From assembly GCA_046484055.1 (NCBI GenBank), contig JAWOBY010000066.1:18928-82927 (forward strand): a stretch of DNA of 64,000 bases. Direction: 5' to 3'. Below are positions 6,030 through 49,550 of the stretch, one piece after another (positions within the stretch are counted from its first letter, which is position 1; the number at the start of each line of letters is the position of its first letter). The position numbers were made by a program, and so were the translations under genes. Below the pieces are notes generated by a model, which was given only the letters and a program-made list of their open reading frames with translations, did no database searches and was not told the DNA's origin. This DNA is from Candidatus Woesearchaeota archaeon. Lineage in GTDB: Archaea; Nanobdellota; Nanobdellia; Woesearchaeales; UBA12501.

Positions 6030-6971
6030 TTAAAGCATCTGTATCAGAATTATCAGGAGGTAACCTGTGACGCAGCCGATGCTGAGGAAAGGCATGGCAG
6101 GGTAATACCTGTCCTCTTTGGAGAGCAGGAAAAGGAGGAGCAGCGCTATGCTGACCACAACAGGTATGATGGCAGTCTTGAGGAAGCCCGCCAGAACAGT
6201 ATCAGTGAGCATGAGGTTCTTCATGACCACCCCTGCGAAGAGAAGGGGGAATCCTATATCTCCTCCCCCCAGTATCGCGCTCTTCCTGCCTTCAGCCCTT
6301 TCTTCAGCAGTCCCTTTTTTTCTCTTAACCTTTTCTGGCTTTTTACCTGATGTTTTTGCGCGTCTCTTCACCTTCTTGTAGGGTATGAACAGGCCGGCGA
6401 ATATCTTTGATTCCGTCTGGAATTTTGCCATCCTGACCATGTGCTTTGATCTCCAGACAGCGTACATGTCATAGAGCGAGACAAGCACGAGCAGGATGAG
6501 CATTGCCTTCAGGTTTATTATGGGCACAAGTATGGCTGCGAGGCCCCCATACACGAGCGTTTCAGTTATGTTATGTATATATATGTTGGGCCTGTATATC
6601 TTCCATAGAGCCAGCGCAAGGGCTATCGCGAAAGCGGCATATTCGTTTATGAAGGCGCCCAGCGCCATAGTGAGGGTTATCAGGACTGCAAGGAAGAACC
6701 AAAGCTTCCACATCCTGTATGCCCCTGTCCTTATTATCAGAAGCACGAGCAGTGTCCCTATTATTATAGCGGCAAAGATATATATGTATGAGCTGGATTC
6801 CTCCACTTCCGGCCTCTCCATATCCATCGGAAGCTCAGCCCATGTCACATTGCCTGTCTGGGCGGTTACCTTGTGATCTATGTATTCGTTCGTCACCGCC
6901 AGGCCTACCAGCTGGGAAATGAAGAAGAACACCACCAATAACAGCGTTATCTTGAGATTATGTTTCATCAT
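6030..6971 (-). CDS. Presenilin / signal-peptide-peptidase-like intramembrane aspartyl protease (A22 family) homolog
   Basis: Polytopic membrane protein. YD motif in VSLYDMYAVW. GxGD motif in ILGGGDIGFPLLFAGVV. PAL-like PAMPFL near the C-terminus. A K/R-rich cytoplasmic loop lies between the two catalytic helices. Confidence 0.55.
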   Translation of the reverse strand: MMKHNLKITLLLVVFFFISQLVGLAVTNEYIDHKVTAQTGNVTWAELPMDMERPEVEESSSYIYIFAAIIIGTLLVLLIIRTGAYRMWKLWFFLAVLITLTMALGAFINEYAAFAIALALALWKIYRPNIYIHNITETLVYGGLAAILVPIINLKAMLILLVLVSLYDMYAVWRSKHMVRMAKFQTESKIFAGLFIPYKKVKRRAKTSGKKPEKVKRKKGTAEERAEGRKSAILGGGDIGFPLLFAGVVMKNLMLTDTVLAGFLKTAIIPVVVSIALLLLFLLSKEDRYYPAMPFLSIGCVTGYLLIILIQML

Positions 6972-7476: not shown

Positions 7477-7554
7477 AAACACCAAAAAGAGACAAAGAGG
7501 GTGCTGCAGGGGCATAGGATAAATTTTTATATGAATACCTATTCTTACAGGAGC

Positions 7555-8514
7555 ATGAGCTTCATATGGACAGAAAAATACAGGCCCCAGAATTTCTCTG
7601 AGATAAGGGGGCAGAAGGATGTGGTCAGCAAGGTAGAGGCGCTTGTGAAGAGCAGGAACCTGCCGCATCTGCTTTTTGCGGGCCCCGCGGGTACAGGCAA
7701 GACCACTCTGGCCCTGGTCACGGCAAAACAGCTTTTTGGTGAGGGGTGGAGGTCCAATTTTCTGGAGCTCAACGCGTCTGATGAGAGAGGCATTGACATA
7801 ATAAGGAACAAGGTGAAGGATTTCGCCAGGACAAGGGCTATTGGTGATGTGCCTTTCAAGATAATCTACCTTGACGAGTGCGATGCGCTGACGAGAGAGG
7901 CGCAGCAGGCCCTGAGAAGGACGATGGAGAATTACACCCAGACCTGCAGGTTCATACTATCAGCGAATTATTCCTCAAAGATAATAGATCCCATACAGAG
8001 CAGGTGCGCGATATTCAGGTTCAGGCCCCTAAGCAGGGATGATATAATGTCTATAATCGACAATATCGCGTCGGGGGAAGGCATAGAGGTATCAGGAGAT
8101 GCTAAGACCGCCCTTTATGATGTGTCCAAAGGCGACTGCAGGAGGGTTGAGAACATAATGCAGAGCTGCGCTGCAGTAAGCAAAAGCATTGATGATGAGC
8201 TTGTCTTCTCGATGGCATCAGTGGCCAAGCCGAAGGAGGTGAAGAAGGCGCTGGAGCTGGCCCTGCAGAACAAGTTCATTGAGGCAAAGGATGAGCTGCT
8301 CAACATAATGCTTAAGTACGGCCTCAGCGGAGAGGACATAATCAGGCAGGTCCAGAAAGAGATACTTGATCTTGACATTGACGGCAGGCAGCAGATGGAG
8401 CTGATATCTTACTGCGGTGAAGCGGAATTCAGGGTCAGCGAGGGTTCTGATGAGTTCATACAGCTGGAGGCCCTGCTGAGCAGGTTCACGTTGGCGGGTG
8501 AAGGAAACAAGTGA
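7555..8514 (+). CDS. rfcS: Replication factor C small subunit
   Basis: N-terminus MSFIWTEKYRPQNFSEIRGQ. Walker A FAGPAGTGKTT. DECD box. SRC-like SRCAIFRF. No intein. Start set at the internal Met. Confidence 0.9.
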   Translation: MSFIWTEKYRPQNFSEIRGQKDVVSKVEALVKSRNLPHLLFAGPAGTGKTTLALVTAKQLFGEGWRSNFLELNASDERGIDIIRNKVKDFARTRAIGDVPFKIIYLDECDALTREAQQALRRTMENYTQTCRFILSANYSSKIIDPIQSRCAIFRFRPLSRDDIMSIIDNIASGEGIEVSGDAKTALYDVSKGDCRRVENIMQSCAAVSKSIDDELVFSMASVAKPKEVKKALELALQNKFIEAKDELLNIMLKYGLSGEDIIRQVQKEILDLDIDGRQQMELISYCGEAEFRVSEGSDEFIQLEALLSRFTLAGEGNK

Positions 8515-8704
8515 GACAGCCACATCAGAGTACAGCCCTGAAACAGATAGATAAGGGGGTTTGTTCTGATTGGCTGAATGGTTCTCCATGATTCTCTGGA
8601 AACAGGAGAGAACATGAACAGAAAGAAGGATGGCGTGATGCTAAAGTGGGAAGAGAATCAAATAGGGATGAATTGATATGAAAAAGTGAAAGAAAAAGGG
8701 AAAT

Positions 8705-9610
8705 TCATCCCTTGCTCTTTATCTTTACGCTCTGCTGTATGAGGTCCCTGTAATCATAGCTGAGAGTCAGGTCTATCTGTTTTGTGTAGAGCGCGCCTTC
8801 CTCCATCGGATTTTTCAGCTTGCACCTTATGGTCCCCTTGCCATTGACCAGTCTTGCCTCGTTCTCCTGGCCTGCGGCCCTGCAGTCCCACTCGTCAGGG
8901 TTGGATGTCTCGTCGATGCTGAACTCCAGCTGGCCGTATCTGGAATCGAAATCCTCTCCCGGCTTGGTCACGTCACCTCCGCCGACATTCTCAACCTGGT
9001 ATTCGATAGCTATTATTCCGGAACCCGCTCTCGCCTGCTTGGCTGATTTCACGATAATCGGAGCGCCTGATGAGAATGATTCTCTCGGGCCCTCAATATC
9101 ACAGACGGAATCGTCAGTTATGTCCTCCTTGAAGCAGACGTCAGGCACTGCCACATGGGTCTTGTAAGGGTATTTGTAACTTGCGAACACAGTCACGTCA
9201 TAATAATTGGTCTGGAGGTCTATGTTGTACTCTGCATCACCAAAGTCAATCGTCTCTTCGCCTCCCAGTGTGTTGAATTCGGAAATCCCCTCGAGCTCTC
9301 CGGAATTGGTCTTCCTCATCTCGATTCCGCTGAAATCCTCTGGTGATATGCCCTTGAGCTTGAGCTCGACATCGCCTGCTTCCACATCCTGTTCGCCCTT
9401 GTTCTCCAGTGTGATCTCTATGGGTATTGTCTCATCCCCGTATATTGTGGGCATGCCATCCTCAACGACACCAAAACTCTCAAAACTCGCTATTATTCCC
9501 TGGGTGCCTCCTTCGTACGGCGATTCGGTGGTCTTTTTTTCCTCTCCTTCGCAGCCTGCAAGGAGCAATGCCCCTAACACCAAGATTATGAAAAGATGTT
9601 TCGCTCTCAT
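8705..9610 (-). CDS. Secreted lipoprotein, paralog A of a tandem three-member family (unknown function)
   Basis: Signal peptide with lipobox LLAGCEG. Shares conserved blocks with the next two genes (SYKYPYKTH/CYKYRTYAT/CYGYETFAS, GAP(I/V)xV, LSYDYR/LDYGYR/LNYGYS) and conserved Cys positions. Confidence 0.6.
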   Translation of the reverse strand: MRAKHLFIILVLGALLLAGCEGEEKKTTESPYEGGTQGIIASFESFGVVEDGMPTIYGDETIPIEITLENKGEQDVEAGDVELKLKGISPEDFSGIEMRKTNSGELEGISEFNTLGGEETIDFGDAEYNIDLQTNYYDVTVFASYKYPYKTHVAVPDVCFKEDITDDSVCDIEGPRESFSSGAPIIVKSAKQARAGSGIIAIEYQVENVGGGDVTKPGEDFDSRYGQLEFSIDETSNPDEWDCRAAGQENEARLVNGKGTIRCKLKNPMEEGALYTKQIDLTLSYDYRDLIQQSVKIKSKG

Positions 9611-9715
9611 TTTGACCTCCCTCTGTTCTTTTTTGTGAGATTGTTTTTTTATTTTTAATTCGTATTTGATTTTTGTTTCTCTTTCTTACTCCAATGAATG
9701 AAGGCAAGTCTTATT

Positions 9716-10669
9716 CTAATATGTATGCCTTCCTGGCTGCCTGTGTATTGTCACATCCTTTGCTATTGAATTCCTGTAGCCGTAATCAAGCACTATGGAG
9801 AGCGAAGTCTTATATGCTTCATCCCCCAGGTCTCCCTCCCAATAGCAGATTGCGAATCCTCCTCCATTTGATATGCGGACAATATCCGGCTCGCACCTGA
9901 GCTGCTTGTCAGAGAACTCGGCCCTTACCCCCACCATGTCCACATCTGTCCTCTCAAGCTGTGAGTGGCATTCGCTTATGGGTGCTGTGGGCCTTATGAC
10001 TGTGCCTCCCCCCACATTCGCTATATTGACCTTGAACTGCACTCTTCTTCTGGAGCTCTGCTGTTCAACATTTGTTACTGCTACCGGAGCGCCCTGTGTT
10101 CCTCCTACCTGCGGGGCTCCAGCGACGCATACCTTTTCCTCATGGCTGACTCCGAAAGGGTCCGGATCTATACATACGCTTCCTGTCGCGTAAGTCCTGT
10201 ACTTGTAGCATGCTGTGGCCTTTATGGTCTGTCTGAATAGGTCCTGCTCGTTCGGCATGTTGGCGGAGGACACAGTAAAGGTGTGGGTGTTGATCATGTT
10301 CCCTTGGGGATTGAACTCGTCCTTGCCCTGCGCCCTTATCCCTGTGAGCATTGTCCTGTCAAAACGCAGATAGTTCCTGTCGAAACCGCTCAGGTGTATA
10401 TAACCCCCTTCGATATCATAGGCGCCCTTATTGGTGTATTCTATCGCCACGTCCATCCTGTCTCCTTCATATATGTCAGAGGGAGGGCTTCCTCTCACGA
10501 AATTGAGAACCAGCCCCTGGCTTCCTGTCCTGAATGTCTGCCTCTTTGATTGGTCCTCTTCAGGTTCAGTAAGGCCTGTGCATCCGAAGAGAGAAACCAG
10601 TATGCTGGCCATCAAAAGACCGATTAACAGACCAACCAATAATCTTTTTGCCCTCATTTTTCTACTCAT
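9716..10669 (-). CDS. Secreted lipoprotein, paralog B of the same family
   Basis: Signal peptide with lipobox SLFGCTG. Conserved blocks shared with paralogs A and C. The true start is probably the internal MRAKRLL. Confidence 0.6.
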   Translation of the reverse strand: MSRKMRAKRLLVGLLIGLLMASILVSLFGCTGLTEPEEDQSKRQTFRTGSQGLVLNFVRGSPPSDIYEGDRMDVAIEYTNKGAYDIEGGYIHLSGFDRNYLRFDRTMLTGIRAQGKDEFNPQGNMINTHTFTVSSANMPNEQDLFRQTIKATACYKYRTYATGSVCIDPDPFGVSHEEKVCVAGAPQVGGTQGAPVAVTNVEQQSSRRRVQFKVNIANVGGGTVIRPTAPISECHSQLERTDVDMVGVRAEFSDKQLRCEPDIVRISNGGGFAICYWEGDLGDEAYKTSLSIVLDYGYRNSIAKDVTIHRQPGRHTY

Positions 10670-10805
10670 TGATGCGGATATTATGATTTATGGACGCTTT
10701 CTTTATAAATATTTTTGTATGCCCGGCAGGTTATGCATTGATTTCTGAATCCGCTCTAAACCTATGAATTTTTATTGCCGAATACCCTGATCAATGTATA
10801 AGCTC

Positions 10806-11849
10806 TCAGGGCCTGTTCATCTCCACAGTCCTGGATATTGTCTGGCTGTAGCCGTAATTAAGCCTTACCTGCAGGGAGGTCTTATAACTCCCGTCCTCCT
10901 TGCTTATGATTCCTGGCTTAGTGGTGCAGATTATCCTGTCCTCATCCCCCCTTAGCTTGAGATTGACAGGCTCGCATCTTATATGGCCTGCCTTCATGGA
11001 ATATCCTGAGAATGATATGTCATCAATCCTCACTGTTTTTAAATCCTCATGGCTGAGAGGGGAGGCCGAGCATGCCTGCCTTACCTTTCCCGGACTCAAA
11101 ACAGTCCCTCTCCCTTTGTTAGATATATGTATTATGAACTGCGGCTTGATAGAATCATCCTCTCCTGCCATCATATTGACCTCGACCCTGTCAACAGAGA
11201 CCGGCGCCCCCTGCCCCCCTGAAAGTGATATATCCTCAACATTACAGGTTTTCTCCTGAGGGTTCATGTCATATATGTCCGTGTCAACACAGAAATCCCC
11301 GCTGGCGAAAGTCTCATACCCATAGCATGATGTGAAGGAGATGCTTGACTCGTGTGTCGTGCTCTGCCTCTCGAGGGGAAGGGCTTCAACATTCGCTAAA
11401 AAAACCTTATTCCCCCCTGAAGGGAGCATCTGCGATTTTCCGTCAAGATCAAATGAGACCTCCTCCCCGCTACCGCCTATCTGGTGTGCGTCCTTCTCAA
11501 GGTCCCATCCTTTTATCCTCATGTAATTATCCTCGACATTCAGGATCAGATAACCATTCTTTATGTCATGGGCCCCTTTATTATGCATTTCTATGCCTGC
11601 CTGGAAAGGCGCCACGCTGCCTTCCTCGGGAGCGATTATCTCTGAAGGGGGAGCATTCTTCAGGAAGGATACCTTCAACCCCTCAGTTCCAGTGTGTATC
11701 TCCACATCCTTTATGCCCTCATCAGGTTTTATGAGACTGCTGCAGCCCGCGGAAAGGATCATGCAGGAAATCATCACCAGGGCAAGGGCGGTTCCTGCTC
11801 CTCCTGCAGGCAGGGTCATGCCTGCTTTCAGCTCTTTAATTCTTATCAT
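10806..11849 (-). CDS. Secreted lipoprotein, paralog C of the same family
   Basis: Signal peptide with lipobox LSAGCSS. Conserved blocks shared with paralogs A and B. Its start abuts or overlaps the stop of the upstream 723 aa gene, suggesting an operon. Confidence 0.6.
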   Translation of the reverse strand: MIRIKELKAGMTLPAGGAGTALALVMISCMILSAGCSSLIKPDEGIKDVEIHTGTEGLKVSFLKNAPPSEIIAPEEGSVAPFQAGIEMHNKGAHDIKNGYLILNVEDNYMRIKGWDLEKDAHQIGGSGEEVSFDLDGKSQMLPSGGNKVFLANVEALPLERQSTTHESSISFTSCYGYETFASGDFCVDTDIYDMNPQEKTCNVEDISLSGGQGAPVSVDRVEVNMMAGEDDSIKPQFIIHISNKGRGTVLSPGKVRQACSASPLSHEDLKTVRIDDISFSGYSMKAGHIRCEPVNLKLRGDEDRIICTTKPGIISKEDGSYKTSLQVRLNYGYSQTISRTVEMNRP

Positions 11850-14017
11850 ACTACCTCCACGTTCCATTTCCTTTCCTCTATCAGCTCGCCCTCCTTGCTG
11901 ACTGCCTGGAAGGTTATAACCGCGCTGCCTGCCTCATCTGATGAGAATATGTAAGATGTCTGGTCAGGCGCTGTCTCCTCCTTGACACCTTTGACACCCC
12001 ATGCGTATGAGATATCGCCAGGGTCCTTCAGGGTTACAGAGAATACCTCTTTCTCGCCCTTATCAAGCGTAATTGAGGATGATGAAGGGCTGTAGGAGAA
12101 TGATGGCTCGGCTTTCTTCTCCTGGCCCTCGCCGCCGGGGGTGACATTCTCATCGACAAGAGGCTCTTTGATCATGACAGAAGTGGATTTCTCAAGCTCA
12201 TACACGTAATCAACTGTGGTCTTGAAGTATTTGGTGACGAGAGGGTATGATCCCATGAGCATATTTATGTTTTTAGGCCTTGCCCTGCAGGCTATCGAGT
12301 GATAACCTTTGACATTCTTTATGCTGTTCAGGCCGAGCCTCCCCTCCTCTGCCTGATCCTTTATGGTATAAACCACTGAATATTTCCCGTCCTCGCACTC
12401 ATCCTCCCGGCATGGCCTTTTCTCAAATGCATGATCGCAGTATATTATCTCAAGAGATTCAGGTATCTTTATTATGATATCATTGACTTCCTTTATCTTG
12501 CCCTCCCACCCATTCTCAAGGGTTATGCCTAGCTTTATGTCCTGGGAGCTGGTGGGGCTCACACCCATAGGTACCTCAGAGGTCTCCATGCCAAGGGATA
12601 TCGGTCCGTTGGTGTACGTCGCCGAGGGCTTCTTGTCCTTTATCTCATACTGGTCCAGAGGGTCTATCCCTTCCCTCCTCATCGACCTGAGCGTTTCCAG
12701 GTTCATGAAGTATCCTTTTATGTATGACATTGTGCGGAAGTTGAAATCCGCTTTGACAAAGATGCTATTGGGGCCTTCTTCAAAGAAGCCTGGAGGGAAT
12801 TCGCATGTTATGTATTTCTCCTCCTCTGTGCTGGTCTTCATAACGAACTCATCATCATCTGATGTCGGATCCGCATCCCCTTTCTCCTTCTTCAGCTCAT
12901 AGTCCTCCATCTTCTCGCCCCAGCATGATGCAGTGACAGTAATTGTCTTGTCAGGGTCAAGAGTCCTCGCCAGCAGGGTGGCCCAGACGACAACCACTTC
13001 ATTGGAATAGAATTCTCTGGTGACGGGCTTGACATCCTTCAGGTAAACGCCTATCGGCCGGTTCTTGCCCTGCTCCACCCGGCCGGTATAATAATCCCCT
13101 GTGGCGTATTGTATCTGTTTCTCTGCTGTTTTCCTGACCTTGGATGGTATGCCCACTATCACTTTCCAGGAGAGCTGAAGGCCCTCCTTGAATTTTTCAC
13201 CTATCGTATTGATTGTGCCTGCAGCGCCTGTCTGCATCTGTCCTATGTCGAAGTCAATGGCTATCGAATTCCATATGAGTGGTATGAGGAGCACAAGCAC
13301 GAAAAAGACATATGCTACTCTTGCCACCCTGACCACTCTTGTTGTGGGCATGCCGAACATTATCACGATTGGCCAGACAGGCACGAGGATGAGGATCGTC
13401 TTTATTGTCTCCTCTATATTGAGAAGGTTGAATATGAACTCATTCATCAGCAGGAGCGGCAGGAAGAAAGCTATGGCTGATATCACAAGAGGGGGCACTA
13501 ATGCCTTCATATCGCCTATGCCCTGCTCGTGCTGGCTGAATATGAAGAGCCAGGCGAAGATTGCAAACATAAGGAGTATGATTGCTCTTGTTTTGGTAAA
13601 AGAGAACATATAAGGTGCGATACCATACGGCCCTACATCTAAAAAATGCAGAGCGAAAGACGCGAAAAGAAGTATGTTTATGGCCATGAACAGCTTCTGG
13701 CTGATCCTCCACGCGCCCTTTGCCCCTTTATAAGCCAATGATCCTGCGCCTGCGACCGTCGCTCCAGCAGCCACTCCTTTGAGGCCCGCACCCCTTATCT
13801 GTTCAGGAGTGGGTGTTGCCCTTCTCACGCCCCCTGAGAATCTTCTTGCCGCTCCGCCCATCCTGCCTGCGGCAGGGCCCGCTTTTCCCGCAGCACCTCC
13901 CAGCTTGCCCTTTGCCGAGCTTAATTTGCCTGCGAGGCTTCCAAGCTTTCCTTTCGCAGCGCCTCCTGCGCCCTTGAATTTTGTCCCTGCCTTGAGCAGT
14001 GATTCTTTCCAGCCCAT
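11846..14017 (-). CDS. Large polytopic membrane protein with a G/A/K-rich N-terminal repeat region and a large extracytoplasmic C-terminal domain; unknown function
   Basis: 723 aa. The N-terminal ~100 aa are low complexity (KGKLGSLAGKLSSAKGKLGGAAGKAG). About 7 TM helices follow, then a ~480 aa soluble domain containing conserved Cys residues. No recognisable catalytic motifs. Confidence 0.55.
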   Translation of the reverse strand: MGWKESLLKAGTKFKGAGGAAKGKLGSLAGKLSSAKGKLGGAAGKAGPAAGRMGGAARRFSGGVRRATPTPEQIRGAGLKGVAAGATVAGAGSLAYKGAKGAWRISQKLFMAINILLFASFALHFLDVGPYGIAPYMFSFTKTRAIILLMFAIFAWLFIFSQHEQGIGDMKALVPPLVISAIAFFLPLLLMNEFIFNLLNIEETIKTILILVPVWPIVIMFGMPTTRVVRVARVAYVFFVLVLLIPLIWNSIAIDFDIGQMQTGAAGTINTIGEKFKEGLQLSWKVIVGIPSKVRKTAEKQIQYATGDYYTGRVEQGKNRPIGVYLKDVKPVTREFYSNEVVVVWATLLARTLDPDKTITVTASCWGEKMEDYELKKEKGDADPTSDDDEFVMKTSTEEEKYITCEFPPGFFEEGPNSIFVKADFNFRTMSYIKGYFMNLETLRSMRREGIDPLDQYEIKDKKPSATYTNGPISLGMETSEVPMGVSPTSSQDIKLGITLENGWEGKIKEVNDIIIKIPESLEIIYCDHAFEKRPCREDECEDGKYSVVYTIKDQAEEGRLGLNSIKNVKGYHSIACRARPKNINMLMGSYPLVTKYFKTTVDYVYELEKSTSVMIKEPLVDENVTPGGEGQEKKAEPSFSYSPSSSSITLDKGEKEVFSVTLKDPGDISYAWGVKGVKEETAPDQTSYIFSSDEAGSAVITFQAVSKEGELIEERKWNVEVV

Positions 14018-14443
14018 CTTACCCTCTTTTAATCCTCTTATCCAGCTTGCTGTATCTTCACGAGGCTATGCCCCCTGATCTGGTGTTCCGTCCGATATGG
14101 CCTGTCCGATGATACGCACAATCCCTGAACCAATACTAAACAGGCAGTTAGCTCAGCAGGTTTTACATCGCATCCGTTCCCTGGGTGCGTACCACTGTCC
14201 TTCATTTCTGAGGCACCCTTCATACCATGGGCGATATATGATTATGTAATCATGTCAAAACAGCTTTGAGCGGGCGGCCTGCACTCAGCTCTCCCTGGCA
14301 AGCACTTTCATGTTCACCACATCCAGCACTGTCTTGGGTTTTATCTCTATGACATTATTGCCTTCCCTTACCATGCTGTTTATGTTGAGGTCATAGGTCC
14401 TGTCCCTTGTGTCGATGCCCCTCTGGTGGTTGTTGACCCATAT

Positions 14444-15505
14444 CTACGCCTTCTTCTGCTCTGTGTCGCCCACGAACTCAAAGTAAAGAATTACATCAAT
14501 ATCCCCTTCTACAATATCATCATGTATCGACTTGTTTATCTCAAAATAGTAGGTGGGGTATACCATCTCTTTCAGATCGGTCTTCACCACTATGTTGTCT
14601 ATCAGGTATGATCCTTCTGTTGTGCTGAATTTGAGCTTGTTCTCGCCGCTCAGCAGGAGATGAGGCGACACCTCAAGGGGCCTGAGGATACCGCAGTCAG
14701 GCACTGACGAGTATATCCTGTTGTTGTTCAGCACTATCTCAAGAGGGCCCACTTCCTTGATGTCACAGTCAGGGAAGAACTTGACGAAAACCCTGTCAAG
14801 GTTGTTCTTCTCTGTGCCCGTCACCTGGAACACCAGCTCTGACTCCCTGGTGCTGACATCAGTGACATCAGCTGTTATCTTTATGTTCTCAAGTATGTAT
14901 TCGTTAGTGCGCCAGAACTTCCACCCGACGCCTGAGACCATGATCTCCAGAGTGTTATGGTCCTCAAGCAGCCTTTTCGGGAGCTTTATGGGTTCGGCAT
15001 TTGCAGAATTGAATTCATTATTGACGATCTCATTGCCGTTCAGCTTCATGATGAGCCTGCCCCTCCTGTTCTTGACATTGAATGAGAGCAGGATATCCTC
15101 AGTGTGCTCTATCTCGGGTATGGAGAATGTTAGATTCACCTTTGACTTGTCGAACCAGGCGTTCTTCACGTAGATGGACTGCCTGGACTGGAGAACCACT
15201 GCATCAGTGGTGGTATAGAGGTTCACTGACGGCAGTGTGTGCTCGACTTCCTTCTGCGATATATAATCAAGCCTGCCCGGACTCTCGACCAGGAGCGTGG
15301 AGTTCGGCCCTGACAATGAAGTGCCCCCTCCGCTGTCTGCCGTAGTGTTCTCATCAAGAAGCTCCGCCCTGTCCTCAGGGGGGATCATGAGTATGTATAT
15401 CACTATCAATGCCGCTATAACACCTACAAGAACCGCCGCGCTCGCGCCGCTAAGGCCTGAAGGCTGCCCTTTTTTTGACCTGATAAGCCTGATATCAAGC
15501 TTCAT
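14444..15505 (-). CDS. Membrane-anchored extracellular protein, possible class III (pilin-like) signal peptide
   Basis: Start set at MKLDIRLIRSKKGQPSG...AAVLVGVIAALIVIYILMI, a basic stretch with KKGQ followed by one hydrophobic helix. The remainder is beta-rich and extracellular. The track ORF starts further upstream, inside the divergent promoter region. Confidence 0.45.
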   Translation of the reverse strand: MKLDIRLIRSKKGQPSGLSGASAAVLVGVIAALIVIYILMIPPEDRAELLDENTTADSGGGTSLSGPNSTLLVESPGRLDYISQKEVEHTLPSVNLYTTTDAVVLQSRQSIYVKNAWFDKSKVNLTFSIPEIEHTEDILLSFNVKNRRGRLIMKLNGNEIVNNEFNSANAEPIKLPKRLLEDHNTLEIMVSGVGWKFWRTNEYILENIKITADVTDVSTRESELVFQVTGTEKNNLDRVFVKFFPDCDIKEVGPLEIVLNNNRIYSSVPDCGILRPLEVSPHLLLSGENKLKFSTTEGSYLIDNIVVKTDLKEMVYPTYYFEINKSIHDDIVEGDIDVILYFEFVGDTEQKKA

Positions 15506-15611
15506 ATCGGTAAAATAAATAGCTTTATATATAAATGTTTTTCTGTTTTCCCCTGAATCAGGCATTTCCGGCCCTGAATGAAGGGCCCCTGCTACATACG
15601 CCGAGGTGCAT

Positions 15612-16676
15612 ATGATGAAGGTTATCCATTCTGACTTCAGGAAAGGCGAAGTGAAGATTGCTGTTGACAGCCTTGACGATTTGTGGTATCTGAGCAACAT
15701 AATAGAGAACGGCGACACAGTGAAAGGTCAGACTGTGAGGAAGATAAAGCTCGGAGAAGAAGGGGACAGGAAGACGAGCATAAACAAGAGGAATGTATTT
15801 CTTTCAATCAGTGTGGAGAATGTTGAGTTCCATAAGTATTCAAACAGCCTCAGGATTTCAGGGGTGATAGCGGAAGGGCCTGAGGATGTTGCAAGAGGAT
15901 CCCACCACACATTCAATGTTGAAGAGGGCACAAAGCTGACAATACAGAAGGAGAGCTGGCCTGAATTCCAGAAGAAAAGGCTTAAGGAGGCATCCCAGCA
16001 GAAGGCCGCGAGCATACTGATCTGTATCATGGACAGGGAGGAGGCATACTTTGCGCTCATGAAAAGCTCAGGGTATGAGCTGCTCTCAACGATAAAAGGA
16101 GAGGTGGAGAGGAAGGACAGGGAATCGCAGAAGGGAAGGGATTTTTATGGCGAGATAATATCCGCGCTGAAGAACTATGATGAGAGATACAAGCTTGACA
16201 GGATAGTGCTGGCCAGCCCCGCCTTCTGGAAGGAGGACCTCATGAACTCTCTGAAGGATGAGGGGCTGAAAAAGAGGATAGTCCTGGCGAACTGCTCAAG
16301 CTCTGACGAGAAGGCATTCAATGAAGTGCTCAAGAGGCCTGAGGTGCAGGAAGCGCTGAGGCAGGACCGCATGACAAGAGAGATCAACAAGGTGGAGAGG
16401 CTGCTCGCAGAGATCTCCAAAGGAGGCCCCGCTTCTTACGGCCTGAGGCAGGTCGAGCAGGCGGCCGCAGCTGGCGCTGTGGAGGAGCTCCTCATAACAG
16501 ACTCATGCATAAATGATTCAAGGCAGTCCGGAGAGTATGAAATGATAGACAAACTCCTGAAGACAGCGGAATCCTCAGGGGGTGAGATCCACATGATAAG
16601 CTCTGAACATGACGGGGGGAAGAAGCTTGACGGACTCGGGGGCATTGGGGCGATGCTGAGGTACCGGATGGAATGA
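15612..16676 (+). CDS. pelA: Pelota/Dom34 mRNA surveillance protein
   Basis: eRF1-like domain architecture. The track ORF begins at a GTG, so the first in-frame ATG was used. Confidence 0.85.
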   Translation: MMKVIHSDFRKGEVKIAVDSLDDLWYLSNIIENGDTVKGQTVRKIKLGEEGDRKTSINKRNVFLSISVENVEFHKYSNSLRISGVIAEGPEDVARGSHHTFNVEEGTKLTIQKESWPEFQKKRLKEASQQKAASILICIMDREEAYFALMKSSGYELLSTIKGEVERKDRESQKGRDFYGEIISALKNYDERYKLDRIVLASPAFWKEDLMNSLKDEGLKKRIVLANCSSSDEKAFNEVLKRPEVQEALRQDRMTREINKVERLLAEISKGGPASYGLRQVEQAAAAGAVEELLITDSCINDSRQSGEYEMIDKLLKTAESSGGEIHMISSEHDGGKKLDGLGGIGAMLRYRME

Positions 16677-16753: not shown

Positions 16754-17779
16754 TCATGCGCCAAGAAGCTCTCTAACCTCTCTCGCAATCATCCTTGCCT
16801 CATCAGTCCTCACCGTGAGGACATTCTTTATCCTGAGATGGCCAAGATACTTTCTTATCCTGTTCCTTATGGCAGCGCTGTTCTCACCAATCCCTCCTGT
16901 GAAAACAAGCATGTCTATCCCGTTCATGGCGGCCGCATACGCGCCTATGTATTTGGCGGCGCGATAGCAGAACACATCCACTGCCAGCTTCGCTTTCCTG
17001 CTCTTCGATTCCAGAAGTTTTCTCATGTCACTGCTGAGGCCTGATATGCCGAGCAGGCCTGATTCCTTGTTGAGCATATTGTGTATCCTTTTAGGGCTGT
17101 GTCCTTTTGCTGTCAGGAACTGCATTATCCCTGGATCTATGTCCCCGCTCCTCGTGCCCATCACAAGGCCTTCCAGAGGGGTCATGCCCATCGATGTGTC
17201 TATGCTCTTTCCGTTCCTTATTGCTGTTACAGAACAACCATTGCCCAAGTGGCAGGTAACTATCCTCTGCTTTCTTATGTCTTTCCTAAGCCTCCGGCAT
17301 GCCTCATGCGCGACATACTTGTGGCTCGTGCCGTGGAATCCATATCTTCTTATCCTGTGCCTGCCTGACACATCAGAAGGAATCGCGTAGGTATACGCCT
17401 TTTCGGGCATGCTCTGATGGAATGCTGTGTCAAAGACAGCGATCTGTGGCTTGTCGAATATCCTCCTGCATATCCTTATCCCCTCGATCTCTGAGGGGTT
17501 GTGCAAGGGCGCAAGATCAGAAACCTTCTCAAGTTCCTTCATCAGAGCGCTGTTTATCCTTTGGGGCCTCTCAATCCTTCCTCCGTGCACAACGCGGTGG
17601 CCGACAGCATCTATGCTTATGCCCTTCCTGCTTATGATGCCCGATACCTTCAGCATCACCTTCCTGAAGTCATCTTTCTTTTTCAGTCCTTCAATGATGC
17701 CCTTGATCATCCTTTTTTCGTTGTCAAACACCTCATACTTGACAGAAGAGGACCCCACATTGAAAACCAGCACTTTCAT
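16754..17779 (-). CDS. ackA: Acetate (propionate) kinase family protein
   Basis: N-terminus MKVLVFNVGSSSVKYEVFD. Motifs VGHRVVHGG, HLGNGCSVTAI and FTGGIGENSAAIR. Compact at 341 aa. Confidence 0.8.
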   Translation of the reverse strand: MKVLVFNVGSSSVKYEVFDNEKRMIKGIIEGLKKKDDFRKVMLKVSGIISRKGISIDAVGHRVVHGGRIERPQRINSALMKELEKVSDLAPLHNPSEIEGIRICRRIFDKPQIAVFDTAFHQSMPEKAYTYAIPSDVSGRHRIRRYGFHGTSHKYVAHEACRRLRKDIRKQRIVTCHLGNGCSVTAIRNGKSIDTSMGMTPLEGLVMGTRSGDIDPGIMQFLTAKGHSPKRIHNMLNKESGLLGISGLSSDMRKLLESKSRKAKLAVDVFCYRAAKYIGAYAAAMNGIDMLVFTGGIGENSAAIRNRIRKYLGHLRIKNVLTVRTDEARMIAREVRELLGA

Positions 17780-17902
17780 TTTTCATCCACCACCTTTTAC
17801 GGCCTTCTTCATCAGCAGTATCGAATAGTATCATCCGGCAGTGTATATAAATTTTTTCAATGTATGCGATGCATGCCTTTCAAAAGATTTAAATAAAAAG
17901 CA

Positions 17903-19915
17903 GTGGAGGGACTATCTATCATGGGAGATGAGAGGGGGCCTTCAGGTCCTGAAGAGAAAGAGGAAAAAGAGGTGCTGAGCGGGGGGGCGCATGATAGGTT
18001 TCCCCCTCCCGAATGGTTCAGGCAGAAGGCCCGCATAAAAAGTTTTGAGGAGTATGAGAGGGAATACAACAGATCAATAGAGGATCCTGATTCTTACTGG
18101 AAAGACAAGGCGGAACAGATTGACTGGTTCGAAAAGAAAGACGGAAAGATATACTTCTGGGACGAAAAGGAGAGTATCTGCAAGTGGTTTGAGGGATGGA
18201 AGCTCAACGCATGCTACAACTGCATTGACAGGCACCTTGCTGACAAGGGGGAAAAGACAGCGATAATCTGGCAGGGCGAACCTGAAGATGATAAGAGGAC
18301 CTTCACGTACAAGGAGCTGCACAGGGAGGTGTGCAGGTTCGCCAATGTGCTAAAATCAAAAGGCGTAAAGAAAGGTGACAGGGTATGCGTCTATCTTCCT
18401 ATGATACCTGAGCTTGCGATAAGCATGCTCGCCTGCGCAAGGATAGGGGCGGTCCATTCCGTTGTTTTTGCTGCGTTCAGCCCCGCCGCATTGAGGGACA
18501 GGATTGATGATTCAAAAGCAAAACTCCTTATCACCGCAGACGGCAGTTTCAGGAAAGGCAGGGTGTATCCGATAAAACAGAATGCTGATGAGGCCCTAAG
18601 TGAGGGATGCGGAAGCATAGAGAACGTGATCGTGGTCAGAAGGACAGGAAGCGAGACAGACATGAAAGAGGAGAGGGACACCTGGCTGGACGAGGAGATC
18701 AAGGTTGTGTCTGATGAGTGCGAGGCAGAAGAGATGGACGCAGAGGATATGCTGTTCATACTCTACACCAGCGGGACCACAGGCAAGCCTAAGGGCGTTG
18801 TCCACACCACAGGAGGGTACCTGCTTTACGCCTACCAGACATTCAAGTGGGTGTTTGATATAAGGGATGAGGATATATACTGGTGTACTGCTGACATCTG
18901 CTGGATAACAGGCCATAGTTACATAGTTTACGGGCCCCTGGCGAACGCCGCCACCACTGTGATGTTTGAAGGGGCCCCGACATATCCCGAGCCTGACAGG
19001 TTCTGGAAGATCGTTGAGGACCTTAAAGTAAGCGTATTCTACACTGCTCCCACTGCAGTGAGAGCGCTTGCAGCAGAGGGCGATGAATGGCCAAAAAAGC
19101 ATGATCTCAGCAGCCTGAGACTACTGGGCAGTGTGGGCGAGCCCATAAACCCTGAGGCGTGGAGATGGTATCATGATAATATAGGGAGAGGGGAATGCCC
19201 AATTGTTGACACGTGGTGGCAGACAGAGACAGGTGGGATAATGATAACTCCTCTTCCTGGAGCGATGGATCTCAAGCCGGGATGCGCGATGAAGCCTTTT
19301 CCAGGCGTCAATCCTGCAGTGCTGAGGGAAGACGGCTCTGAAGCAGAGAGGGAAGAGAATGGTTATCTCGTGATAAAACAGCCATGGCCGGGAATGCTGA
19401 GAACATTATACAACAACCATGAGAGATTCAGGGAAACATACTTCTCAAGGTTCAGGGGGATGTATTTCACAGGGGACGGCGCTAAGAGAGACATCGAGGG
19501 GGACATCTGGCTGATGGGAAGGATTGATGATGTCATAAATGTCTCAGGTCACAGGGTGGGCACTGCAGAGATTGAAAGCGCACTGGTGAAGCATGGTGAT
19601 GTCGCTGAAGCTGCGGTCGTGCCTTACCCCCACAAGATAAAGGGAAGTGGGATCTATGCCTTTGTCACGCTCAACAAGGGTGTGGAGAAGAGCGAAGACC
19701 TGAAAAAATCCCTTACTGGACTGGTTTGTGATGAGATAAGCAAGGTCGTAAAGCCGGATAAGATACAGTTCTCTGATGCCCTGCCCAAGACAAGATCAGG
19801 CAAGATAATGCGGCGCATACTCAGGAAGATAGCTGAAGGATCACAGGATATAGGGGATACGTCAACGCTTGCTGACCCTTCAGTCGTTGATAAGCTGCTT
19901 GAAGAGAGGCAATGA
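17903..19915 (+). CDS. acs: Acetyl-CoA synthetase (AMP-forming)
   Basis: 670 aa. AMP-binding motif [13 protein letters not shown]-terminal RSGKIMRR. The start could instead be the Met at 17921. Confidence 0.9.
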
Positions 19916-19976
19916 ACACATCTCATGCGCACACACAGCCGAAAAATTTGATCAAAACGATGCCGGAAGATTGCTG

Positions 19977-20243
19977 ATGTCTCTGGAAAAAATAAGGGTG
20001 ATGGTGCAGCAGGCTGAATTCATGAGCCAGGATGACATAGAAGAGATAAAGGAATGCATAGGCCTTCTGAAAAAGAGTGAATGTTCTGATGGCAGGGTTC
20101 TTGAAGAGCATTTCTTCACAAAAGAGTTTGGTTTCCCAAAAGACTGGAAAGAATACAAATGGTATGTTGTCCAGATGCTGGACGAGTATTGTATAGTGAC
20201 TCCTGAGGAAGCAAGGAAATTCTATGACAGGGGCCTCATATAA
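19977..20243 (+). CDS. Hypothetical small protein
   Basis: The ORF has typical local codon usage. Its track start overlaps the acs 3' end, so the internal Met was chosen. No homology recognised. Confidence 0.3.
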   Translation: MSLEKIRVMVQQAEFMSQDDIEEIKECIGLLKKSECSDGRVLEEHFFTKEFGFPKDWKEYKWYVVQMLDEYCIVTPEEARKFYDRGLI

Positions 20244-20367
20244 TCCAGGGCATCAGAGCGCTCTCAATGGAAAGGGATTGAGGGAAGGGCGAACCTGATG
20301 GGGGTGGGATGGTGAATGTGAATGGGATTTATGAATGGGTTTTACAAGAGCGGACGCATTCGCCTCG

Positions 20368-21390
20368 TCAGTCCGCCTGCTCATGCGCATTCCCGTAATC
20401 CTTCTTTTGCGCTTCGATTACTGTTATGGCTGTTATGTCTACAATCTCCCGGACAGAACACCCCCTTGAGAGGTCATTAACCGGTTTTTTCAGGCCCTGA
20501 AGCACCGGCCCTACAGCCTGGGCCTTGCCGAAGAATGTTGCGAGCTTGTATCCTATGTTGGCTGCATTGAGCTCAGGGAATATGAGGACATTCGCTCCGC
20601 CATGCAGTTTGCAGTCAGGGCATTTTATCCTGCATACCTTGGGATCCACAGCAGCGTCAAGCTGCAATTCACCGTCAATGAGAAGGTCCGGAGCGTGGTA
20701 TTGGGCTATCTCTGTGGCTTCTTTCACTTTTTTCACCATCGGATGCTTCGCTGAACCCTTTGTGGAGAATGACAGCATCGCCACCTCGGGCTCCAGACCG
20801 AACCTTTTTGCGGTCATGGCGGTATCGATGGCTATGTTGGCCAGGTCTTTCGCGTCAGGATCCGGCTCCACAGCAGCATCAGCGAAAAGCATCAGCTTGT
20901 TCTTGAACATCATGAAGAATACCCCTGATACCTTATGGAACTTCTTCTTGGTCCCTATTATCTCGAATGCAGGCAGAAGGGTATGCGATGTGGGATGCAC
21001 AGCACCTGATATGAGGCCATCCGCATCCCCTGTCTGGACCATCATCACCCCGAAATGGACGGGTTCTTTCATTTTCTTCCTTGCCTTTTCAAGGGTGATC
21101 CCCTTGTGTTTCCTCAGCCTGTAAAACTCCTGGGAGTAAGAGTCAAGTTTCTTTGAATCCTCTGCCCCTATTATTTCGACCGTGTTCCGATCTATTGCGA
21201 GCCCGAGCTCTTTTATCCTGCCTATAATCTCTTTCTCATCGCCAATGAGGACAGGGCAGGCGATGCCTTCCCTTGTTATGGTTTCTATGGCCTTCAGTGT
21301 CCTTTCCTCTGTGGATTCAGGGTAGACTATCCTCTTGGGTTTTTTCTTTGCTTCTTCAATCCATTTTTCCATTATTTTTCTCATTGCCAT
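20368..21390 (-). CDS. pta: Phosphate acetyltransferase
   Basis: Blocks such as RLRKHKGITLEKARK, STKGSAKHP, IDGELQLDAA and NDLSRGCS match Pta (Methanosarcina-like). Start set at the internal MAMRKIMEK. Confidence 0.85.
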   Translation of the reverse strand: MAMRKIMEKWIEEAKKKPKRIVYPESTEERTLKAIETITREGIACPVLIGDEKEIIGRIKELGLAIDRNTVEIIGAEDSKKLDSYSQEFYRLRKHKGITLEKARKKMKEPVHFGVMMVQTGDADGLISGAVHPTSHTLLPAFEIIGTKKKFHKVSGVFFMMFKNKLMLFADAAVEPDPDAKDLANIAIDTAMTAKRFGLEPEVAMLSFSTKGSAKHPMVKKVKEATEIAQYHAPDLLIDGELQLDAAVDPKVCRIKCPDCKLHGGANVLIFPELNAANIGYKLATFFGKAQAVGPVLQGLKKPVNDLSRGCSVREIVDITAITVIEAQKKDYGNAHEQAD

Positions 21391-21590
21391 CTCGTAAGAT
21401 ATTCCATTATTTAAAAATTTGCACATACCGTGCAGGTCATACCCTGCCCAACCCCCCTAAACCCCTACTCAAAGGGGATGTTTCACATCTATAAGAGAGT
21501 GAAAAACCGTAACATATTAATAGTAGTACTACTTTTTCATTCACTGGGCAGGTAAAAATCGCCCAAAAAAAGAAAAAAGGGGGTTGGAAA

Positions 21591-49345: not shown

Positions 49346-49550
49346 GGTCAATGACCCCCATTTGTTACTATTGGATAATATTATATTATATAAATGTTTC
49401 TGTTTTCTCATAAAAAATCAAAAACTTTATATAGCACAATTTAACTATTGTTAATAATGGTTTTTTAGGGTTTTTAGGGAGTGGTTAGCGTGATCATAAT
49501 GCCTCCAGCCCATGGGGGGCCAATACAGGGTGAAGAATACAGGGTGAAGA

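What the first reader, a model, noticed from the sequence alone, without database searches (positions are those of the whole stretch)
8705..15505. Five-gene envelope cluster of unknown function on the minus strand
The cluster runs from 15505 down to 8705. It holds three tandem paralogous Cys-containing lipoproteins, a 723 aa polytopic membrane protein and a membrane-anchored protein.

The arrangement looks operonic. The 723 aa gene's stop overlaps the first lipoprotein start, and the gaps between the other genes are ~100 nt.

The three lipoproteins share blocks and cysteine positions but have clearly diverged, which implies an old tandem triplication. None matches a domain I recognise. This could be a surface-assembly or envelope system.
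Basis: partly seen in the sequence, partly recalled or inferred. Interest (0 to 1): 0.6.

Follow-up and report, generated by a model that had tools for sequence, protein, structure and literature searches.

The report
Conserved Woesearchaeal five-gene envelope operon
This is a real five-gene operon, found in the same order in dozens of tiny Woesearchaeota archaea, that encodes membrane-tethered surface proteins with no known relatives; in many species one subunit carries enzymes that cut bacterial cell walls, so it may be how these archaea engage bacteria.

Summary
Five minus-strand genes (15505 to 8705) encode a single-pass anchored protein (ANC), a 723-aa polytopic protein (TM) and three lipobox lipoproteins (LPa, LPb, LPc).

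The window comes from a Candidatus Woesearchaeota MAG. None of the five matches Pfam, NCBIfam, PADLOC, PHROGs or PDB sequences.

The order Pelota | ANC-TM-LPa-LPb-LPc | RFC recurs in about 50 species-level genomes. The three lipoproteins are position-specific orthologues (155 of 156), so the triplication is ancient. TM and LPa overlap by 4 nt in 67% of loci.

AlphaFold models show that each lipoprotein is two beta-sandwich domains. The TM ectodomain has the same strand order and is probably a fourth, distant paralogue. ANC carries three tandem repeats of about 100 aa.

The main functional clue is that TM orthologues carry C-terminal peptidoglycan hydrolases from six unrelated families. SLT occurs in 31 of the 42 longest representatives. 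The window's copy ends in an Ig-like domain instead, but the window separately encodes a 1451-aa multi-hydrolase.

Best reading (inferred): a membrane-anchored surface scaffold that binds and breaches bacterial murein. Main rival: a structural coat.

ANC in the window contains an in-frame TAG. No paper found describes the operon.

The parts
15528..15535 (-). TATA-like box TTTATATA, about 27 nt upstream of the ANC start codon. Candidate operon promoter, probably with a short or absent leader.
   Evidence: Sequence inspection. Promoter function is inferred, not shown.
14285..15505 (-). ANC. It has a short basic N-terminus with a KKGQ motif, one membrane helix and an LPPxER motif, followed by three tandem ectodomain repeats of about 100 aa. 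An in-frame TAG at 14446-14444 interrupts repeat 3. The frame then continues to a TGA at 14287-14285.
   Evidence: ORF. Orthologue N-termini. Self-hhalign of the repeats gives probability 97%, E 2e-10. tblastn against orthologue L008 gives 74% identity across the TAG. There is a weak Pfam CBM-like hit in 3 of 49 orthologues.
11846..14017 (-). TM, 723 aa. Residues 1 to about 106 form a G/A/K-rich tail, predicted to be cytoplasmic. About five membrane helices lie at residues ~107-253, followed by a low-confidence linker. A two-domain beta-sandwich ectodomain lies at residues ~323-617. A C-terminal Ig-like domain lies at residues ~639-722. This copy has no hydrolase domain.
   Evidence: AF2 model mc21e03a4ebed, pLDDT 79. 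Pfam gives only a weak PKD_3 hit. hhalign against the LP family gives E 6.6e-4 over 174 columns. Orthologues carry PG hydrolases C-terminally.
10806..11867 (-). Lipobox ...LSAGC. The likely start is the ATG at 11849, which overlaps the TM stop as ATGA.
10702..10709 (-). TATA-like box TTTATAAA, about 38 nt upstream of LPb. Possible internal promoter.
   Evidence: Sequence inspection. Inferred.
9716..10669 (-). LPb. Lipobox ...LFGC, then two beta-sandwich domains, each ending in a long beta-hairpin.
   Evidence: AF2 model m195e99f51d15, pLDDT 92.7. 158 homologues, all annotated as hypothetical. Invariant cysteines.
8705..9610 (-). LPc, the most divergent paralogue. Lipobox ...LAGC.
8681..8697 (-). 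Two T5 runs just downstream of the LPc stop. Candidate archaeal transcription terminator.
   Evidence: Sequence inspection. Inferred.

Best explanation
The five genes encode a co-inherited, membrane-tethered surface module, probably a hetero-oligomeric complex.

Its parts are as follows:
- Four related two-beta-sandwich ectodomains sit on the outer face of the cytoplasmic membrane. Three are held by N-terminal lipid anchors (LPa, LPb, LPc). One is held by a roughly five-helix membrane domain (TM).
- ANC is a single-pass protein with three tandem beta-rich repeats. These may bind carbohydrate.
- The distal C-terminus of the TM subunit is a variable 'business end'. In many species it is a murein hydrolase. 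In this window it is an Ig-like domain.

I infer that the module works as a scaffold that positions glycan-binding and peptidoglycan-cutting domains against a bacterial cell wall. That would allow attachment, local breaching or scavenging by a wall-less, reduced-genome archaeon.

Shown: the genes, their paralogy, the folds, the membrane-tethering signals, the order-wide synteny, the TM-LPa coupling and the hydrolase fusions in orthologues.

Inferred: physical assembly, the topology, glycan binding by ANC, and the bacterial target.
For: - Synteny: Pelota | ANC TM LPa LPb LPc | RFC recurs in about 50 of the 80 GTDB species loci with enough flank.
- Positional orthology: 155 of 156 lipoproteins match best at the same position.
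- Coupling: the TM-LPa junction has a median of -4 nt, overlaps in 67% of loci and is <=20 nt in 94% of 52 loci.
- Lipobox: present in essentially all family members. Lipoproteins and the AliA lipidation enzyme are reported in DPANN (PMC12462473).
- Folds: the LPb model (pLDDT 92.7) is two beta-sandwiches. The TM model shows the same strand order plus an Ig-like domain. Profile-profile comparison gives E 6.6e-4 with motifs in register, and HMM hits are weak but co-located.
- ANC: three repeats.
- C-terminal PG-hydrolase fusions in TM orthologues: of 59 GTDB orthologues, 8 carry SLT, 4 Glucosaminidase, 1 Amidase_2 and 1 Phage_lysozyme2. Of 42 representatives >=1000 aa, 31 carry SLT, 3 Peptidase_M23 and 1 Amidase_3. 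In the six orthologues where the domain position was read, it lies C-terminal to the conserved core.
- Family size: 1453 clusters at 50% identity.
- Same window: a secreted 1451-aa protein with Amidase_3, NAGPA, Glucosaminidase and NlpC/P60 domains.
- Literature: large SLT proteins of Woesearchaeota and Pacearchaeota have been proposed to bind or degrade bacterial walls (PMC8204110; PMC9723730).
Against: - The window's own TM protein has no hydrolase domain, and about three quarters of the species-level orthologues lack a recognisable one. The conserved core must therefore have a function that does not need a fused hydrolase.
- No subunit interaction was tested, because no multimer prediction was available.
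- The TM-ectodomain/LP homology is weak (hhalign probability 27%).
- The carbohydrate-binding idea for ANC rests on three sub-threshold Pfam hits. There is no PDB sequence hit.
- Fold searches returned only generic Ig-like tandems with TM-scores around 0.1-0.26.
- ANC is interrupted by a TAG in this genome.
- No Woesearchaeon has a demonstrated bacterial host.
Confidence: 0.42

Rival explanations
1. A structural cell coat or pseudo-periplasmic scaffold, in effect an S-layer substitute or S-layer anchor. On this reading the five proteins are constitutive building blocks of the Woesearchaeal envelope. The hydrolase domains are accessories that some lineages mounted on an abundant surface protein.
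For: - The operon is near-universal in the sampled lineage. It sits between housekeeping genes (Pelota, RFC) and has ordinary GC content.
- Most orthologues lack hydrolases.
- All parts are beta-sandwich ectodomains with membrane tethers, as in many archaeal surface-layer proteins.
- No S-layer gene is otherwise apparent in the ORFs I scanned.
Against: - No match to any S-layer Pfam family.
- By my recall of the literature, archaeal S-layers are built from one or two fast-evolving proteins. They are not five families kept in fixed order with position-specific orthology.
- The proteins are small (about 300 aa) and tethered close to the membrane.
- Six unrelated murein-hydrolase families were recruited to the same terminus. 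That points to a selected functional link, not decoration.
Confidence: 0.28
2. An uptake or export device. On this reading the TM subunit oligomerises into a channel, and the lipoproteins and ANC capture substrates such as muropeptides, lipids or nucleotides released from neighbouring cells.
For: - A polytopic protein encoded next to lipoproteins recalls binding-protein-dependent transporters.
- Hydrolase fusions would generate muropeptide substrates.
- DPANN archaea depend on scavenging (PMC8204110).
Against: - No ATPase or permease family was detected in the five genes, and no further family recurred inside the conserved gene order.
- The membrane domain is the least conserved part. None of the invariant or nearly invariant columns among 59 orthologues falls in it, helix counts vary on a crude hydrophobicity scale, and local motifs occur in only about half of orthologues.
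- The lipoproteins are Ig-like beta-sandwiches, not the alpha/beta fold of solute-binding proteins.
Confidence: 0.08
3. A pilin-like or bindosome-like surface assembly. On this reading ANC carries a class III (prepilin-type) signal peptide, is cleaved after [KR][AG], and is assembled with the other proteins into a surface structure.
For: A [KR][KR][AGS]Q motif directly precedes the membrane helix in 39 of 49 ANC orthologues. This resembles G/A|Q prepilin cleavage sites of archaeal pilins, as I recall them.
Against: - A FlaFind-like pattern, recalled from Szabo et al. 2007, matches only 4 of 49 orthologues.
- In 27 of the 39 motif-bearing orthologues the uncharged stretch starts at least one residue after the Q, most often four; in 12 it starts at the Q.
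- No assembly ATPase, platform protein or A24 peptidase lies in the conserved neighbourhood.
- The only intramembrane protease found nearby is an SPP/presenilin type, and it is not part of the conserved flanks I saw.
Confidence: 0.07
4. A mobile-element, viral or defence module that happens to lie here.
For: Phage-type lysin domains (Phage_lysozyme2, SLT with M23) occur in some orthologues.
Against: - The chromosomal position between Pelota and RFC is fixed across dozens of species.
- Base composition is ordinary.
- No PADLOC or PHROGs hits.
- The BFVD fold search gave only generic matches.
Confidence: 0.02

Closest known systems
[quoted passage not shown] 2021, PMC8204110; GH23 proteins in Vigneron et al. 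2022, PMC9723730)
   Same: The TM family found here very probably includes these proteins. 31 of the 42 longest representatives and 8 of 59 species-level orthologues carry an SLT domain after the conserved core. The proposed role, binding and degrading bacterial walls, is the same.
   Different: Those papers flagged the SLT domain only. They did not describe the conserved TM-plus-ectodomain core, the hydrolase-less majority, the other hydrolase families, or the four partner genes and their fixed operon. The window's protein lacks SLT. I could not map it to fam00969 directly.
Lipobox lipoproteins of archaea (AliA/AliB-dependent; PMC12462473)
   Same: There is an N-terminal signal peptide with the canonical lipobox [LVI][ASTVI][GAS]C and an invariant Cys.
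   Different: Lipidation is not demonstrated for any Woesearchaeon. The mature domains belong to no described lipoprotein family.
Membrane-anchored cell-wall hydrolases of Gram-positive conjugation systems and phage tail lysins (for example SLT+CHAP or SLT+M23 architectures; from general knowledge)
   Same: A membrane-tethered protein exposes an SLT domain, sometimes with M23, for local murein cutting at a contact site. P0149 carries SLT plus M23.
   Different: No VirB4/VirD4-type ATPase or other secretion component was detected among the five families or recurring in the conserved order. There is no sequence relationship outside the hydrolase domain. The hydrolase is optional here.
Cellulosome-type surface scaffolds (a functional analogy only, from general knowledge)
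   Same: A cell-anchored array of beta-sandwich modules with CBM-like repeats is associated with glycan hydrolases.
   Different: There are no cohesin, dockerin or SLH matches. The hydrolase is covalently fused rather than docked. The target would be murein.
Archaeal S-layer and CARDB/PKD-type surface proteins
   Same: Ig-like beta-sandwich ectodomains. There are sub-threshold CARDB (E 0.048) and PKD_3 (E 0.17) hits. Fold hits are to generic Ig tandems.
   Different: All hits fall below the Pfam gathering scores. No S-layer family matches. The five-family fixed operon is not an S-layer pattern.

Membership tests
Lipobox (Sec/SPII-type) lipoproteins | An N-terminal basic n-region and hydrophobic h-region, followed by a lipobox [LVI][ASTVI][GAS]C | tested here: met
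   The logo is L-[LIV]-[SAT]-[GA]-C in 214 of 230 members by an automatic filter; the 15 printed exceptions also show one by eye. Cys30 is invariant in 110 sequences.
Lipobox (Sec/SPII-type) lipoproteins | Actual lipid modification, and a lipidation enzyme (AliA/AliB in archaea) in the genome | not testable with these tools
   Only 64 kb of the genome is available. AliA is reported present in DPANN generally (PMC12462473).
SLT / GH23 lytic transglycosylases (Pfam PF01464) | An SLT domain with a catalytic Glu (E-S motif) | tested here: not met
   The window's TM has no SLT hit. Orthologues do: 8 of 59 and 31 of 42 long representatives. The window protein is therefore a hydrolase-less member of the same core family.
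Class III (prepilin-type) signal peptide proteins | [KRDE][GA] cleavage site immediately followed by the hydrophobic stretch (FlaFind-like pattern, recalled from memory) | tested here: inconclusive
   [KR][KR][AGS]Q occurs in 39 of 49 ANC orthologues, but the strict pattern matches only 4 of 49. In 27 of the 39 the uncharged stretch begins 1-8 residues after the Q, most often 4.
Class III (prepilin-type) signal peptide proteins | An A24 prepilin peptidase and an assembly ATPase or platform encoded with it | tested here: not met
   None appears in the conserved gene order. The nearby protease is of the SPP/presenilin type, PF06550.
Archaeal S-layer protein families / CARDB / PKD | A profile match at the curated threshold | tested here: not met
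   CARDB scores 14.3 bits against a 22.7 cut-off. PKD_3 scores 12.2 bits against 26.3. No S-layer family is listed.
Binding-protein-dependent (ABC-type) transporters | An ATPase and a permease, plus an alpha/beta solute-binding fold in the lipoprotein | tested here: not met
   No ATPase or permease families were found. The lipoprotein model is all-beta.
Type IV secretion / conjugation cell-wall hydrolase modules | VirB4/VirD4-type ATPases and channel components encoded alongside | tested here: not met
   The operon contains only the five families and is flanked by Pelota and RFC.
Anti-phage defence systems / phage proteins | A match to PADLOC or PHROGs profiles | tested here: not met
   No hits at E <= 0.01.

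The most novel reading that the evidence does not exclude
The operon encodes the conserved base of a previously unrecognised archaeal surface machine. In this reading, a hetero-oligomer of four paralogous double-beta-sandwich subunits plus a triple-repeat glycan binder lets Woesearchaeales dock onto bacterial peptidoglycan and cut through it. That would be a dedicated apparatus for archaeon-on-bacterium episymbiosis or predation. It would be built from protein families with no characterised relatives.
Probability: 0.3. Interest if true: 0.85.

Novelty: categorically new. Interest (0 to 1): 0.7.

Why it matters
Woesearchaeota are among the most widespread uncultured archaea. Their hosts and their way of life are unknown. 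Earlier genome surveys noticed isolated 'large SLT proteins' and speculated about bacterial hosts.

This analysis places those proteins inside a fixed five-gene module that the sampled lineage carries almost universally. It also shows that at least six unrelated murein-hydrolase families were recruited to the same subunit terminus.

That gives a concrete, testable set of targets for asking whether, and how, an archaeon attaches to or feeds on bacteria. The targets are five proteins, defined domains and a predicted topology.

It also defines four or five protein families that are absent from Pfam and NCBIfam. Even if the module turns out to be a structural coat, it would be the first candidate for the Woesearchaeal envelope.

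Tried and rejected
- Profile libraries: Pfam, NCBIfam, PADLOC and PHROGs gave nothing at threshold for any of the five proteins.
- PDB by sequence: single proteins and family profiles gave nothing meaningful.
- Fold searches: Foldseek of both AF2 models against PDB, and of the LPb model against BFVD, gave only generic Ig-like tandems such as integrin alpha legs, transglutaminase C-terminal barrels, MG domains and RbmA, with TM-scores around 0.1-0.26. I draw no family conclusion from them.
- Protein searches for TM: the first was swamped by the low-complexity N-tail and returned 11 hits. A truncated query returned 19.
A closer 30-sequence alignment worked.
- The look-up of encoding contigs found neither the window's ANC nor its TM on record. 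I therefore could not check how the depositors treated the TAG.
- Class III signal-peptide idea for ANC: the motif is partly present, but the strict pattern fails.
- ANC related to the LP family: not supported by hhalign. There are only faint HMM hits to LP domain 1.
- TM domain as a conserved catalytic or channel unit: the motifs [HY]xx[DE] and PxW occur in only 34 and 25 of 62 orthologues, against 26% and 10% by chance.
- TAG reassignment: rejected, because TAG ends 7 of 40 window ORFs.
- Viral or mobile origin: rejected on synteny and composition.
- Literature: searches for a description of the operon found none.
Full report
**1. Observation**

The minus strand between 15505 and 8705 carries five long ORFs:
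- ANC: 14444-15505, 353 aa from the ATG at 15505.
- TM: 11846-14017, 723 aa.
- LPa: 10806-11867, 353 aa.
- LPb: 9716-10669, 317 aa.
- LPc: 8705-9610, 301 aa.

The three smaller proteins are clear paralogues. BLASTP gives LPb/LPa 3e-41 and LPc/LPb 4e-19.

Each starts with a basic, then hydrophobic, signal sequence that ends in a lipobox. Across 230 family members the logo is L-[LIV]-[SAT]-[GA]-C. The cysteine is invariant in a 110-sequence alignment.

The TM stop overlaps an LPa start codon as ATGA at 11849-11846.

GC content is ordinary for the window. The flanking genes are RFC small subunit (7501-8514, +) and Pelota (15606-16676, +).

**2. A correction to the ANC gene**

The ANC ORF ends at a TAG (14446-14444). 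At this position the closest orthologue (L008, 74% identical) has Glu. The same frame then continues for 52 codons that are as conserved as the rest of the protein, and ends at a TGA at 14287-14285.

TAG is an ordinary stop in 7 of 40 window ORFs, so a genome-wide reassignment is unlikely. The remaining possibilities are a sequencing or assembly error, a recent nonsense mutation, or read-through. I could not recover the depositors' gene calls.

**3. Source organism and homologues**

LPb is 100% identical to a hypothetical protein of a Candidatus Woesearchaeota MAG. All 158 homologues found are unnamed proteins of Woesearchaeota or Nanoarchaeota MAGs and have no Pfam domain.

None of the five proteins matches Pfam or NCBIfam at threshold, PADLOC or PHROGs, or PDB sequences, whether searched singly or as family profiles.

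**4. Synteny**

A pattern scan of one genome per GTDB species returned 80 loci. I extracted six-frame ORFs and ran iterative HMM searches with the five window proteins plus Pelota and RFC.

The order Pelota(-) | ANC TM LP LP LP (+) | RFC(-) recurs in about 50 loci that have enough flank. 52 loci show exactly TM followed by three lipoproteins. Independent look-ups gave the same picture.

Labelling the lipoproteins a, b and c by position, 155 of 156 have their best cross-genome BLASTP hit at the same position. The triplication therefore predates these lineages, and the three copies are not interchangeable.

Intergenic gaps across the 52 loci are as follows:
- TM to LPa: median -4 nt, overlapping in 67% of loci, <=20 nt in 94%.
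- The other three junctions: medians of about 50 nt.

This suggests translational coupling of TM and LPa.

In the window a TTTATATA box lies about 27 nt upstream of the ANC ATG. A TTTATAAA box precedes LPb. Two T5 runs follow LPc. These are promoter and terminator candidates only.

**5. Anatomy of the proteins**

*LPb.* The AF2 model is confident (pLDDT 92.7, 110-sequence alignment). It shows the signal helix and then two beta-sandwich domains, each closed by a long beta-hairpin.

*TM.* The AF2 model of residues 100-723 has pLDDT 79. Numbering below is by model residue; add 99 for protein residues.
- About five membrane helices.
- A low-confidence linker.
- A two-domain beta-sandwich region (model residues 224-518) with the same order of strands and hairpins as LPb.
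- A separate seven-strand Ig-like domain (model residues 540-623).

*Relationship between TM and the lipoproteins.* Profile-profile alignment of the TM family against the LP family gives E 6.6e-4 over 174 columns. Family motifs fall in register: FNFxTxAY with CYxYxTxA, GPVxIG with GAPVAVT, and LGITLxNxWxGxI with FKIxIxNVGGGxV. LP-HMM hits on TM orthologues are weak, but they fall at the same place. I therefore treat the TM ectodomain as a probable fourth, distant paralogue. This is an inference of moderate strength.

*TM membrane domain and tail.*
- None of the invariant or nearly invariant columns among 59 orthologues lies in the membrane domain.
- Local motifs there occur in about half of the orthologues.
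- The N-terminal tail is 4-247 aa long, of low complexity and dispensable.

*ANC.*
- A conserved [KR][KR][AGS]Q motif precedes the single helix in 39 of 49 orthologues.
- An LPPxER motif follows the helix.
- The ectodomain is three tandem repeats of about 100 aa (self-hhalign probability 97%, E 2e-10).
- Only 3 of 49 orthologues touch a Pfam family, CBM-like PF14683, with best E 2e-4.

*Fold searches.* Searches against PDB and BFVD gave only generic Ig-like tandems.

**6. The functional lead**

TM orthologues vary from 439 to 1181 aa among the GTDB loci, partly through C-terminal extensions. The appended domains include peptidoglycan hydrolases from six unrelated families.
- Among 59 GTDB orthologues: SLT 8, Glucosaminidase 4, Amidase_2 1, Phage_lysozyme2 1.
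- Among 42 representatives of >=1000 aa from a 1.84-billion-protein library: SLT 31, Peptidase_M23 3, Amidase_3 1.

In the six orthologues where I read its position, the hydrolase lies C-terminal to the conserved ectodomain. The TM family comprises 1453 clusters at 50% identity.

The window's TM ends in an Ig-like domain instead. However, the same window encodes a signal-peptide-bearing 1451-aa protein with Amidase_3, NAGPA, Glucosaminidase and NlpC/P60 domains at 58705-63060.

[quoted passage not shown] I found no description of the conserved core or of the operon.

**7. Interpretation**

What is shown: a deeply conserved five-gene unit encodes extracytoplasmic, membrane-tethered proteins. 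It includes four related ectodomains and one triple-repeat protein. One subunit has repeatedly acquired murein hydrolases at its distal end.

What is inferred: the five proteins assemble into a fixed-stoichiometry surface complex. This complex positions binding and cutting domains against bacterial peptidoglycan.

My confidence in the assembly is fairly high. My confidence in the murein-directed role is about 0.4, because most orthologues, including this one, lack a fused hydrolase.

The main rival is a structural coat (0.28). I consider the following unlikely, for the reasons given under rival explanations:
- a transporter,
- a pilin-like assembly,
- a mobile or defence module.

**8. Comparison and novelty**

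No defining feature of any known system was met beyond the lipobox. The closest known items are these:
- the SLT proteins already flagged in surveys, which are probably members of the TM family;
- archaeal lipobox lipoproteins;
- by analogy only, membrane-anchored conjugation or phage lysins and cellulosome-like scaffolds.

I rate the operon as lying outside known kinds of system. The caveat is that its parts are built from common folds and its function is not demonstrated.

Noticed in passing
window 14444-14446 (minus strand), inside ANC: An in-frame TAG sits where the closest orthologue has Glu. The frame continues for 52 conserved codons to a TGA at 14287-14285. TAG is a normal stop elsewhere in the window. 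This could be an error, a fresh nonsense mutation or read-through.
   Followed up: partly
window 58705-63060 (minus strand): A 1451-aa protein with a signal peptide and Amidase_3, NAGPA, Glucosaminidase and NlpC/P60 domains. It also has an SLT-like 'AVESGGDP' motif by eye. This is a multi-activity peptidoglycan hydrolase in an archaeon. The next gene (63070-63999) is Cys-rich with a C-terminal membrane helix.
   Followed up: partly
window 46073-49411 (minus strand): A 1112-aa protein with a multi-helix membrane block and several Ig-like domains (FixG_C, CARDB, NPCBM_assoc). It is another large envelope protein of unknown role.
   Followed up: no
window 6030-6971 (minus strand): A presenilin/signal-peptide-peptidase homologue (PF06550) lies two genes from the operon. 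It is not part of the conserved flanks in the other loci I examined.
   Followed up: no
window 14018-14284: There is a 267-nt non-coding gap between the extended ANC stop and the TM start. The median gap in 48 other loci is 49 nt. No Rfam family matches anywhere in the window.
   Followed up: no
window 16754-21426: Three genes that look like acetate kinase (assigned by eye), AMP-forming acetyl-CoA synthetase (by eye) and phosphotransacetylase (Pfam PTA_PTB) lie together beside the operon.
   Followed up: no
loci L009, L010, L014, L042, L056 and others: Several GTDB records carrying this Woesearchaeal operon are titled 'uncultured Methanosarcinales archaeon'. One is titled 'Candidatus Binatia bacterium' and one 'Candidatus Aminicenantes bacterium'. 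Either the labels are wrong or the contigs are mis-binned.
   Followed up: no
locus L005 7995-11992: A variant arrangement: a TM orthologue with Amidase_2 and a single lipoprotein, away from Pelota and RFC. It lies near a 2190-aa LTD/Cadherin/He_PIG surface protein.
   Followed up: no
window 13700-14017 (TM residues 1-106) and orthologues: The N-terminal tail of the TM protein, predicted to be cytoplasmic, is of low complexity (G/A/K-rich or E/K-rich). It is 4-247 aa long and absent from the shortest orthologues.
   Followed up: partly
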